From a virus, in IMG/VR virus record IMGVR_UViG_3300037087_000150, positions 1-64,000 of that record: a stretch of 64,000 bases of DNA. The stretch is one strand, 5' to 3'. A model generated the notes under the pieces. The model ran no database searches, had not been told where the DNA came from, and saw nothing but the letters and a program-made list of their open reading frames with translations. A program made the position numbers and the translations under genes. Shown one piece after another: positions 17,495-17,681 of this stretch (position 1 is its first letter; each line of letters opens with the position of its first letter).

Positions 17495-17565
17495 CATTCG
17501 GTAGTTAAATGGCATAACAGTGGTCCCTAAAACCGAAATTATGGGTTCGACCCCCATCCGAATGA
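17495..17565 (+). tRNA. tRNA with CUA anticodon (amber suppressor-like), C33
   Basis: Acceptor CATTCGG/CCGAATG; D arm GTTA-AATGGCA-TAAC; anticodon arm GTGGT-CCCTAAA-ACCGA; T arm ATGGG-TTCGACC-CCCAT; no encoded CCA. Confidence 0.85.
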
Positions 17566-17609
17566 CAATAAATTTTTTTATATCAAAATTTTTCGTAATT
17601 TTGTATTAT

Positions 17610-17681
17610 CCTTTGGTAGCTCAACTGGTAGAGTAGAGGACCCTAAACCCTTTGATGCGGGTTCGAATCCCGTCCATCGGT
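17610..17681 (+). tRNA. Second tRNA with CUA anticodon, C33, imperfect acceptor stem
   Basis: CCTTTGG/CCATCGG (2 mismatches); GCTC-AACTGGTA-GAGT; GAGGA-CCCTAAA-CCCTT; GCGGG-TTCGAAT-CCCGT; own TAATTTTG box at 17596. Confidence 0.75.

What the first reader, a model, noticed from the sequence alone, without database searches (positions are those of the whole stretch)
17495..17681. Two divergent CUA tRNAs both replace the near-universal U33 with C
The bodies differ widely, yet both have the loop CCCUAAA. U33 forms the anticodon U-turn, so a shared C33 suggests selection for weak or conditional suppression, a need for editing or modification, or evasion of host anticodon nucleases. tRNA 1 has a perfect acceptor stem and a Trp-like GGU/ACC anticodon stem. 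tRNA 2 has two acceptor mismatches and its own host-type promoter, so it may be a decoy or degenerate. Neither encodes CCA, and the charged amino acid cannot be read from sequence.
Basis: partly seen in the sequence, partly recalled or inferred. Interest (0 to 1): 0.8.

Follow-up and report, generated by a model that had tools for sequence, protein, structure and literature searches.

The report
Phage amber-suppressor tRNAs with C33
A fragment of a giant peat-soil phage carries two real stop-codon-reading (UAG) tRNAs that both have C instead of the almost universal U next to the anticodon; this odd base recurs in about one in ten such phage tRNAs, and the tRNAs seem to serve a few nearby genes that keep a UAG stop near their start.

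Summary
ARAGORN and the Rfam tRNA model both call tRNA genes at 17495-17566 and 17610-17682, with the 7-nt loop CCCUAAA (C33, anticodon CUA). Contigs of three other sequencing runs are identical across both loops.

C33 is derived. The two nearest relatives found, a 132-kb contig and the 735-kb phage LR756501, have U33 in the syntenic CUA tRNAs. It is not unique: 10 of 104 unique phage CUA tRNAs in position-33-neutral samples have C33, always as CCCUAAA and mostly with a U33 nearest neighbour. Cultured Acinetobacter phage ZZ1 has one.

The tRNAs look functional. T-loop invariants are intact, the acceptor stem of tRNA1 has changed by compensatory substitutions, and the acceptor mismatches of tRNA2 recur in other CUA tRNAs. 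Likely targets lie nearby: a PTH2-like gene with UAG at codons 3 and 37, both kept in LR756501, and a leader minigene with UAG at codon 3. The contig and LR756501 otherwise use the standard code.

Why C33 arose is unresolved. Tolerated mild attenuation is my best reading; selected tuning, nuclease evasion and editing remain possible. There is no expression evidence.

This scan has already met both C33 suppressors and the amber-gated PTH2 module on other DNA. I found neither in print.

The parts
17495..17566 (+). tRNA1, anticodon CUA (17527-17529), C33 at 17526, loop CCCUAAA, discriminator A, no encoded CCA
   Evidence: ARAGORN; Rfam RF00005 at 53.2 bits with the loop aligned; acceptor 7/7 Watson-Crick
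17610..17682 (+). tRNA2, anticodon CUA (17643-17645), C33 at 17642, loop CCCUAAA, discriminator U, acceptor mismatches 3-70 and 4-69, A31.C39 mismatch
   Evidence: ARAGORN; Rfam at 47.5 bits; two-mismatch acceptor stems recur in other CUA tRNAs
17472..17493 (+). 9-bp hairpin ending 1 nt before tRNA1. A hairpin at this place, with a different sequence, recurs before CUA tRNAs of related phages
   Evidence: stem listed; MFE of the 36 nt upstream is -8.07 (n=65 CUA) against -4.70 (n=358 other tRNAs), Mann-Whitney p=5e-7
17593..17605 (+). Promoter-like motif TCGTAATTTTGTA, 4 nt before tRNA2. It contains TAATTTTG, which fits the Bacteroides -7 box TAnnTTTG
   Evidence: the TAnnTTTG consensus was seen only in a search listing, otherwise recalled
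14546..14929 (+). PTH2-like peptidyl-tRNA hydrolase gene with in-frame TAG at codon 3 (14552-14554) and codon 37 (14654-14656). Probable target of the suppressors
   Evidence: PF01981 at 30.2 bits, cut-off 23; both TAGs at the same codons in LR756501; an early TAG in 63 of 67 unique homologues
14482..14494 (+). The same promoter-like motif (TCGTAATATTGTA) upstream of the PTH2-like gene
16845..16868 (+). Leader minigene ATG-TCA-TAG-ACA-AGG-CCG-CCT-TAA (M S amber T R P P stop) behind AAAGGAG, upstream of the ORF that precedes tRNA1
   Evidence: M S amber S R P P stop in LR756501; M S amber R N K S P stop in L137
16987..17463 (+). ORF of unknown function between the leader and tRNA1. It is syntenic in LR756501 and 80% identical in contig L137/L215

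Best explanation
Both genes are working, phage-encoded amber-suppressor tRNAs. They belong to a conserved module of large standard-code phages. Their task is to read the UAG codons kept at codons 3 and 37 of the neighbouring PTH2-like gene and at codon 3 of the leader minigene in front of the tRNA1 operon. Those products would then be made only when the phage's own tRNAs override the stop.

C33 is a real, derived, single-transition variant of the usual suppressor loop (CUCUAAA to CCCUAAA). It arose separately in each of the two tRNAs. It is compatible with function and probably weakens the U-turn, and so decoding, only mildly. It recurs as a minority state in phage CUA tRNAs because it is tolerated, possibly slightly deleterious.

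Shown: the gene calls, the loop register, the derived state, the recurrence, the synteny and the conserved UAG codons. Inferred: expression, charging, actual read-through, and the size and sign of the C33 effect.
For: The genes are real tRNAs with C33.

C33 is derived:
- The syntenic CUA tRNAs in LR756501 have loops UUCUAGC and CUCUAAA.
- The closest relative found, L137/L215, has CUCUAAA.
- Each of the 6 C33 CUA tRNAs in PTH2-linked loci has a U33 nearest neighbour.

C33 recurs:
- 6 of 68 unique CUA tRNAs in 82 PTH2-linked sources.
- 5 of 41 unique in an uncapped pattern sample that is neutral for position 33.
- 17 unique in a C33-directed scan.
- Cultured phage ZZ1.

Signs of function:
- T54, T55, C56 and A58 are kept in 67 of 67 CUA tRNAs.
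- The acceptor stem of tRNA1 is fully paired although it differs from L137's at most positions.
- 27-43 mismatches are as common in U33 (40/118) as in C33 (7/20) CUA tRNAs.
- L186 and L214 have a C33 tRNA as the only CUA tRNA beside an intact amber-containing PTH2-like gene.

Targets:
- TAG sits at the same two codons of the PTH2-like gene in two phages whose topo II is 58% identical.
- 63 of 67 unique homologues have a TAG 1-7 codons after the ATG. By my inference from the residues, 62 of 63 are followed by a purine-initial codon.
- By my reading of the listing, CUA tRNAs lie mostly 0.3-3.7 kb downstream on the same strand, with a few upstream.
- The leader UAG is conserved.

Standard code otherwise.

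Published background: U33C left an anticodon-loop substrate fully recognisable to gamma-toxin (PMC2275089, passages). Non-U33 exists in eukaryotic initiators and in Candida tRNA-Ser(CAG) (PMC11122139 and PMC5041475, passages).
Against: - There is no expression, charging or read-through evidence of any kind; no RNA holder was listed.
- Both tRNAs score about 10 bits lower on the Rfam model than their LR756501 counterparts.
- The contig is about 14% of the genome, so other suppressors, other targets, or wider recoding of late genes cannot be excluded for this phage.
- If C33 were merely tolerated, having it in both divergent tRNAs of one genome is unexpected: roughly (4/66)^2 per two-tRNA genome. 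It happens again in L255, which hints at a genome-level cause.
- C33 is somewhat enriched in CUA over other tRNAs (10/104 against 16/389, OR 2.5, p=0.044).
- C33 is always preceded by C32 (22 of 22, against 68% of the U33 tRNAs). Pure drift does not predict this.
- The early UAG could instead end a mini-ORF followed by re-initiation at the next AUU or GUN codon. The codon-37 UAG argues against that here.
Confidence: 0.55

Rival explanations
1. C33 is selected to weaken the suppressors. Weak suppressors would open the amber-gated genes at a low, regulated level without reading through the phage's and host's ordinary TAG stops.
For: - C33 is CUA-specific in the genomes that have it. In 15 C33 loci, 43 of 43 other tRNAs have U33. 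The non-CUA tRNAs of L161 and L186 also have U33: one search gives one C33 each, and one search shows it is the CUA tRNA.
- Modest enrichment in CUA tRNAs (OR 2.5, p=0.044).
- Both copies carry it here and in L255, as expected if total suppressor activity is the selected trait.
- The loop keeps C32, A37 and A38, so only position 33 is altered.
- The amber-containing leader ending in R-P-P-stop suggests the read-through level is sensed.
- TAG share of long-ORF stops is slightly higher in C33 loci: 43/323 against 129/1310, Fisher p=0.085, Mann-Whitney p=0.04.
Against: - Four of six genomes with a C33 tRNA and a second CUA tRNA keep U33 in the other (L141, L161, L245, L276). That defeats attenuation of total activity.
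- This contig itself hardly uses TAG stops (4 of 127), so there is little to protect.
- C33 lineages look like tips. 13 of 20 have a U33 nearest neighbour and no deep C33 clade appears, as for a short-lived variant.
- The statistics are marginal and GC content is a confounder.
- No measurement of C33 against U33 efficiency in bacteria was available to me.
Confidence: 0.2
2. C33 protects the suppressor from a host factor that attacks or disables the anticodon loop, such as an anticodon nuclease or a modifying toxin that needs U33.
For: - Phage tRNAs are proposed to carry anticodon-loop mutations that escape host anticodon nucleases (PMC10264068; I read part 1 of 3).
- Recurrent, tip-like, independent origins fit an arms race.
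- C33 also appears in Glu, Leu, Phe, Cys and Ala tRNAs of some of these phages, with five in L166 alone.
Against: - That paper's main text never mentions position 33 or suppressors.
- For the one nuclease with data I could read, U33C had no effect on cleavage (PMC2275089).
- Hosts have no CUA tRNA of their own to target.
- Clustering of C33 by genome is weak (permutation p=0.073).
- No defence system was identified here and the host is unknown.
Confidence: 0.08
3. C33 is edited to U33 after transcription, so the mature tRNAs are canonical.
For: - Genomic C at an otherwise invariant U is repaired by deamination in other systems, for example C8 in Methanopyrus (recalled, not checked here).
- C33 always follows C32 (22 of 22), which could be a recognition context.
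Against: - No cytidine-deaminase domain was found in the contig (PF00383 and PF14437: 0 matches), though only about 14% of the genome is in hand.
- Editing would have to single out the CUA tRNA, since neighbouring tRNAs are U33 (43 of 43).
- No RNA data exist.
Confidence: 0.04
4. The tRNAs, above all tRNA2, are decaying remnants of a former recoding system, and C33 is one of several disabling mutations.
For: - Rfam scores are lower than in LR756501.
- tRNA2 has three mismatched pairs and tRNA1 has one.
- Only a handful of TAG-containing genes remain.
Against: - The same mismatch types recur in other CUA tRNAs.
- Invariant T-loop and D-loop features are kept.
- The PTH2-like frame is intact apart from its two conserved TAGs and passes the Pfam cut-off.
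- Compensatory acceptor changes are seen in tRNA1.
- The sequence is identical in three other runs.
Confidence: 0.08

Closest known systems
Phage-encoded suppressor tRNA(CUA) of TAG-recoded ('code 15') phages: crAss-like, Lak and others (Borges et al. preprint 10.1101/2021.08.26.457843, passages read; PMC13037316, passages)
   Same: A phage-borne tRNA with anticodon CUA, a low-GC genome and few TAG stops (4 of 127 here). This fits their proposed path: TAG depletion, then suppressor acquisition, then in-frame TAG.
   Different: There is no genome-wide recoding. ORF cover barely rises when TAG is read as sense, both in the contig (0.883 to 0.900) and in the complete 735-kb relative (0.889 to 0.909, less than the TGA control at 0.922). 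In-frame TAG is confined to a PTH2-like gene and a leader minigene, at conserved codons. Those passages do not mention position 33 or a hydrolase.
Orphan CUA tRNA of cultured Acinetobacter phage ZZ1 (NC_018087.3 76199-76269, annotated 'possible suppressor tRNA; anti code:CTA')
   Same: The same loop, CCCUAAA with C33, a C1-G72 first pair, discriminator A, and a T4-like phage.
   Different: ZZ1 encodes CCA and its tRNA sits in a tRNA cluster. I did not test whether ZZ1 has amber-gated genes. Its C33 is not commented on in the record.
Natural non-U33 tRNAs: eukaryotic initiator tRNA-Met (C33) and Candida tRNA-Ser(CAG) (G33)
   Same: A departure from the U-turn uridine in a tRNA with a special decoding role. 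The Candida case is also a codon-reassignment tRNA (PMC5041475 and PMC11122139, passages).
   Different: Those are eukaryotic and fixed in their lineages. Here C33 is a scattered minority state in bacteriophage elongator-type suppressors.
Phage tRNAs with anticodon-loop changes proposed to escape host anticodon nucleases (van den Berg et al. 2023, PMC10264068)
   Same: Phage tRNAs differ from the cellular norm inside the anticodon loop.
   Different: That work concerns sense tRNAs and known cleavage sites. Position 33 and suppressors are not mentioned in the main text. No nuclease is known for this case.

Membership tests
tRNA (Rfam RF00005) | Cloverleaf and conserved D-loop and T-loop nucleotides scoring above the gathering threshold | tested here: met
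   53.2 and 47.5 bits against 29; full-length match 1-71; ARAGORN agrees
tRNA (Rfam RF00005) | U at position 33 | tested here: not met
   C in both. The same holds for 10 of 104 unique phage CUA tRNAs sampled without regard to position 33
Amber suppressor tRNA | Anticodon CUA at positions 34-36 of a 7-nt loop | tested here: met
Amber suppressor tRNA | In-frame UAG codons in genes of the same genome that need read-through | tested here: met
   PTH2-like gene codons 3 and 37, conserved in LR756501; leader minigene codon 3
Amber suppressor tRNA | Expression, CCA addition, aminoacylation and actual read-through | not testable with these tools
   No RNA run holds the locus. The amino acid cannot be inferred
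Code-15 (TAG-recoded) phage | Many genes, typically late or structural, interrupted by in-frame TAG; low coding density under code 11 | tested here: not met
   Contig: cover 0.883 against 0.900. Complete relative LR756501: 0.889 against 0.909, with TAG ending 34 of 595 long ORFs that have a stop. Caveat: only about 14% of this phage is in hand
tRNA-Pyl (ARAGORN's label) | Atypical architecture: no G18G19 or T54-Psi55-C56, a short D loop and a 6-bp anticodon stem (features recalled, not from a call) | tested here: not met
   Both have GG in the D loop, GTTCGA in the T loop and a 5-bp anticodon stem. ARAGORN labels any CUA tRNA 'Pyl'
Amber-gated PTH2 plus suppressor-tRNA module of large phages (seen repeatedly in this scan; not found in print) | A PTH2-like gene with UAG within the first few codons and a CUA tRNA within a few kb | tested here: met
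   Window: gene at 14546-14929, tRNAs 2.6 kb downstream on the same strand. 63 of 67 unique homologues have the early TAG. There are 79 CUA tRNAs in 82 sources

The most novel reading that the evidence does not exclude
Position 33 is an evolutionary tuning knob of a self-sensing read-through circuit. The phage keeps deliberately weak C33 suppressors whose activity is read out by a UAG-containing leader (M-S-UAG-x-R-P-P-stop) and by the UAG-gated PTH2-like hydrolase. Together these hold UAG read-through at a low set-point in a genome that still uses the standard code. U33-to-C33 switches in different phages would then be recurrent adaptive resets of that set-point.
Probability: 0.15. Interest if true: 0.75.

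Novelty: new variant of a known kind. Interest (0 to 1): 0.5.

Why it matters
U33 is treated as a near-invariant requirement of elongator tRNAs (PMC11122139 and PMC5041475, passages). A natural set of bacterial-virus suppressors in which about 10% carry C33 shows that the rule is relaxed for this class. In at least two phages both copies carry it, and a cultured phage (ZZ1) has one. Ready-made C33/U33 pairs are therefore available to measure what the U-turn uridine contributes to stop-codon decoding in bacteria.

The tRNAs also belong to a widespread pairing of a suppressor tRNA with genes that keep an early UAG in otherwise standard-code phages. I could not find this pairing described in print (searches; Iyer et al., PMC7824862, mention phage PTH2 but no suppressor). 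If it is real, it is a small natural translational switch and a plausible early step towards stop-codon recoding.

Tried and rejected
- An exact 29-nt piece of tRNA1 gave 0 hits in viral contigs.
- PhoH-based relatives were only 29-38% identical and had no tRNAs.
- blastn of 17000-19000 against phages found only a 43-nt match in LR756501/LR756503. That match did lead to the syntenic locus.
- MFE folding of the single sequences was uninformative.
- The sigma-70 promoter scan was at chance level.
- Isotype by similarity to 278 other short (under 80 nt) phage tRNAs gave no signal, so 'Trp-like' can be neither confirmed nor rejected.
- Deaminase domains PF00383 and PF14437 had no match in the contig. 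This is weak evidence, because the contig is about 14% of the genome.
- Clustering of C33 by genome gave permutation p=0.073. TAG-stop usage in C33 against U33 loci gave p=0.085 and 0.04, confounded by GC. Both are inconclusive.
- The first capped survey (100 stretches, 80 loci read) gave 41 U33 tRNAs and 0 C33 tRNAs among 81 matches. Later uncapped scans showed that this undercounted C33.
- PTH2 tblastn against the cultured-phage collection found only four uncultured huge-phage records, so I did not confirm earlier notes that lab-grown phages carry the PTH2 module.
- No RNA holder was listed for the locus. Run X14 did not cover the loops.
- The reading CCU (Arg) is rejected for these two genes. 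Six other phage tRNAs with loop CCCCUAA are called CCU by ARAGORN, and they too have C33.
- Supplementary files of the papers were closed. Those of van den Berg et al. and Borges et al. might list loop positions or gene families that bear on C33 or PTH2.
- In PMC10264068 I read part 1 of 3 plus a term search. The other papers I saw as passages or listings only. Bare et al. 1983, on U33 not being essential for amber suppression, is recalled and was not seen. Dix et al. 1986 was seen only as a title in a reference list.

Full report
**What is there**

The window is the first 64 kb of an 85,869-bp single-contig virus record. GC is 26-33%. IMG/VR classes the record as linear, and CheckV estimates about 14% completeness. 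It carries T4-like and jumbo-phage genes: topoisomerase II, DNA polymerase, an SbcC-like protein, GroEL and PhoH.

ARAGORN finds two tRNA genes in the window, and only these two in the whole contig. They lie at 17495-17566 and 17610-17682, both on the + strand and both with anticodon CTA. The Rfam tRNA model scores them 53.2 and 47.5 bits (gathering score 29). Its alignment places CCCUAAA in the seven loop columns of each, so position 33 is C in both, at bases 17526 and 17642. No other register, such as CCU, is supported.

- tRNA1 has a perfect acceptor stem and a G27.A43 mismatch.
- tRNA2 has 3-70 U.C, 4-69 U.U and A31.C39 mismatches.
- The two are 63% identical.
- Neither encodes CCA.

Contigs from three further peat or freshwater runs are letter-identical across both loops, so C33 is not an assembly error.

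**C33 is derived here**

The closest record in the phage collection is the 735,411-bp uncultured phage LR756501/LR756503, with topo II 58% identical. It has the same gene order: a PTH2-like gene, small ORFs, a homologue of window ORF 16987-17463, two CUA tRNAs, then PhoH. Its two CUA tRNAs have loops UUCUAGC and CUCUAAA, so both have U33.

A closer relative is a 132-kb contig (L137 = L215), whose neighbouring ORF is 80% identical. It has one CUA tRNA, with CUCUAAA. Both window tRNAs therefore acquired C33 on this lineage, by two separate T-to-C transitions.

**C33 is not unique to this phage**

I aligned 45 PTH2-like proteins and used the alignment to fetch 80 loci from IMG/VR, out of 197 confirmed relatives. 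With the window and LR756501 that makes 82 sources. ARAGORN finds 491 tRNAs in them, 79 with anticodon CTA.

After removing duplicates:

| tRNA class | U33 | C33 | G33 | A33 |
|---|---|---|---|---|
| CUA | 62 | 6 | 0 | 0 |
| Other | 330 | 16 | 3 | 1 |

Fisher's test gives p = 0.23. The 16 other C33 tRNAs are Glu, Leu, Phe, Cys and Ala. Each of the six C33 CUA tRNAs has a U33 tRNA as its nearest neighbour.

Further samples:
- A position-33-neutral and uncapped pattern, GGTCYCTAAAACC-N6-13-GGTTCGAATCC, gives 42 U33 and 5 C33 tRNAs across IMG/VR, or 36 and 5 unique.
- A C33-directed pattern gives 19 more CUA tRNAs, 17 unique, all with CCCUAAA.
- Pooling the two neutral samples gives 10 C33 of 104 unique CUA tRNAs, against 16 of 389 other tRNAs (OR 2.5, p = 0.044).
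- In the 15 loci found through a C33 CUA tRNA, 43 of 43 other tRNAs have U33.
- Contig L255 also has two divergent CUA tRNAs that both carry C33. L141, L161, L245 and L276 have one C33 and one U33.
- All 22 C33 tRNAs of the first set also have C32, against 68% of the U33 tRNAs.
- The cultured Acinetobacter phage ZZ1 has an annotated 'possible suppressor tRNA' with the same loop.

Earlier notes of this scan had pointed to ZZ1 and to C33 suppressors in at least a dozen genomes. I checked ZZ1 myself.

**The tRNAs look functional, tRNA2 included**

- Among 67 unique CUA tRNAs with a scorable acceptor stem, T54, T55, C56 and A58 are kept in all 67. U33 is the only recurrently altered invariant, at 61 of 67.
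- The acceptor stem of tRNA1 differs from that of its L137 counterpart at most positions yet pairs 7 of 7. That points to compensatory change under constraint.
- The acceptor mismatches that made tRNA2 look degenerate recur: 9 of 68 unique CUA tRNAs have two acceptor mismatches. By my reading of the stems listed, these are pyrimidine-pyrimidine mismatches at positions 3-5:68-70, and L161 has the same U.C/U.U pattern.
- 27-43 mismatches are equally common in U33 (40/118) and C33 (7/20) CUA tRNAs.

Against this, both window tRNAs score about 10 bits below their LR756501 counterparts, and nothing shows that they are expressed.

**What they are for**

The contig reads well under the standard code.
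- ORFs of at least 100 aa cover 0.883 of it. That rises to 0.900 if TAG is read as sense and to 0.929 for the TGA control.
- A crude gene call gives stops of TAA 88, TGA 35 and TAG 4.
- The complete 735-kb relative behaves the same way: 0.889, 0.909 and 0.922, with long-ORF stops of TAA 445, TGA 116 and TAG 34.

This is not genome-wide TAG recoding, at least in the parts seen.

One gene clearly needs read-through. 14546-14929 encodes a PTH2-family peptidyl-tRNA hydrolase-like protein (PF01981, 30.2 bits, cut-off 23) with TAG at codons 3 and 37. An earlier first-reader note on this window had flagged it. LR756501 has TAG at exactly the same two codons.

Across 67 unique homologues, 63 have a TAG 1-7 codons after the ATG, and 42 of those have it at codon 3. 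The next residue is I in 39 and V in 12, and by my inference from the residues the next codon starts with a purine in 62 of 63. By my reading of the listing, a CUA tRNA lies mostly 0.3-3.7 kb downstream on the same strand, with a few upstream. In LR756501 the two CUA tRNAs sit at about 690 kb beside this gene, whereas the other tRNA hits listed lie between about 170 and 367 kb.

A second UAG-bearing element lies in front of the ORF that precedes tRNA1. It is a minigene behind AAAGGAG that reads M-S-UAG-T-R-P-P-stop (16845-16868). It is conserved as M-S-UAG-S-R-P-P-stop in LR756501 and as M-S-UAG-R-N-K-S-P-stop in L137.

The PTH2-like gene and tRNA2 are each preceded by the motif TCGTAATWTTGTA, which has 5 hits in the window against 0.49 expected. 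It contains TAnnTTTG, the Bacteroides -7 box. I saw that consensus only in a search listing; otherwise it is recalled. A stable hairpin abuts the 5' end of tRNA1 and of many related CUA tRNAs.

The simplest reading is that these tRNAs are the key to a small set of amber-locked genes. This scan has reached the same reading on many other genomes. I found no paper that describes it. Iyer et al. mention PTH2 in jumbo phages without suppressors, and the Borges et al. preprint contains neither 'peptidyl' nor 'hydrolase'.

**Why C33**

Four ideas remain open.

1. *Tolerated, mildly weakening variant (my preference).* It is a single transition that keeps a pyrimidine. It arises again and again, mostly at the tips: 13 of 20 C33 tRNAs have a U33 nearest neighbour. 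It stands as the only CUA tRNA beside an intact amber-gated gene in L186 and L214. U33C left an anticodon stem-loop fully recognisable to one loop-reading enzyme (PMC2275089).
2. *Selected attenuation.* Favoured by CUA-specificity within genomes, by the two phages with double C33 and by the modest enrichment. Undercut by four mixed genomes, by the scarcity of TAG stops in this contig and by marginal statistics.
3. *Nuclease evasion.* It fits the general proposal of van den Berg et al. (PMC10264068). It has no specific support, and one counter-example.
4. *Editing to U.* It would need a CUA-specific enzyme. No deaminase domain is present in the 14% of the genome in hand.

Decay of the genes is unlikely, for the reasons given above. 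No tool here can measure expression, charging or decoding. No RNA run holds the locus.

**Verdict**

It overstated the rarity of C33 for this class, misjudged tRNA2 as degenerate, and missed the conserved UAG targets.

These are new members of the phage suppressor-tRNA kind that carry a recurrent and apparently undescribed C33 variant, set in an amber-gated PTH2 module that the scan has already met repeatedly. Interest is moderate. The question becomes directly testable with ZZ1 and with simple C33/U33 reporter pairs.

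Noticed in passing
window 14546-14929; L006 17667-18050; 80 IMG/VR loci: The PTH2-like hydrolase gene keeps an in-frame TAG 1-7 codons after its ATG in 63 of 67 unique homologues. By my inference from the residues, 62 of 63 are followed by a purine-initial codon. The second TAG, at codon 37, is shared by the window, LR756501, L145/L152 and L150.
   Followed up: yes
window 16845-16868; L006 about 19513-19536; L137 about 2978-3004: A conserved leader minigene with UAG as its third codon (M-S-UAG-x-R-P-P-stop) lies behind a strong Shine-Dalgarno sequence, upstream of the ORF and tRNA1. 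It could sense read-through.
   Followed up: partly
window 17472-17493, and the 36 nt before CUA tRNAs in related loci: A stable hairpin, conserved as structure but not as sequence, ends 0-4 nt before the 5' end of many CUA tRNAs. MFE is -8.07 against -4.70 kcal/mol for other tRNAs (p=5e-7).
   Followed up: partly
window 671, 13076, 14482, 17593, 49756 (+ strand): The motif TCGTAATWTTGTA, preceded by a T-run and TCAAAA, occurs 5 times against 0.49 expected. It contains TAnnTTTG, which hints at a Bacteroidota-type host promoter and at co-regulation of the PTH2-like gene and tRNA2.
   Followed up: partly
L166 (IMGVR_UViG_3300037104_000892) and L175: Some related phages have C33 in several sense tRNAs. 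L166 has it in 5 of 13 unique tRNAs (Glu x2, Leu x2, Phe). All 22 C33 tRNAs in the set also have C32.
   Followed up: partly
68 unique CUA tRNAs of PTH2-linked loci: 21 of 68 start with C1 (C1-G72), and 9 of 68 have two acceptor mismatches, which by my reading are pyrimidine-pyrimidine mismatches in mid-stem. Discriminators are A 38, G 15, U 14 and C 1. These are unusual identity features, and the charging enzyme is unknown.
   Followed up: no
L232, L249, L251, L258, L277, L284: Six phage tRNAs with loop CCCCUAA are called Arg-CCU by ARAGORN. They also have C33.
   Followed up: no
contig 64-86 kb (outside the window): Earlier first-reader notes list a Ro60/TROVE gene with Y-RNA-like elements and miniature structural-gene fragments in the rest of this contig. 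I did not examine them.
   Followed up: no
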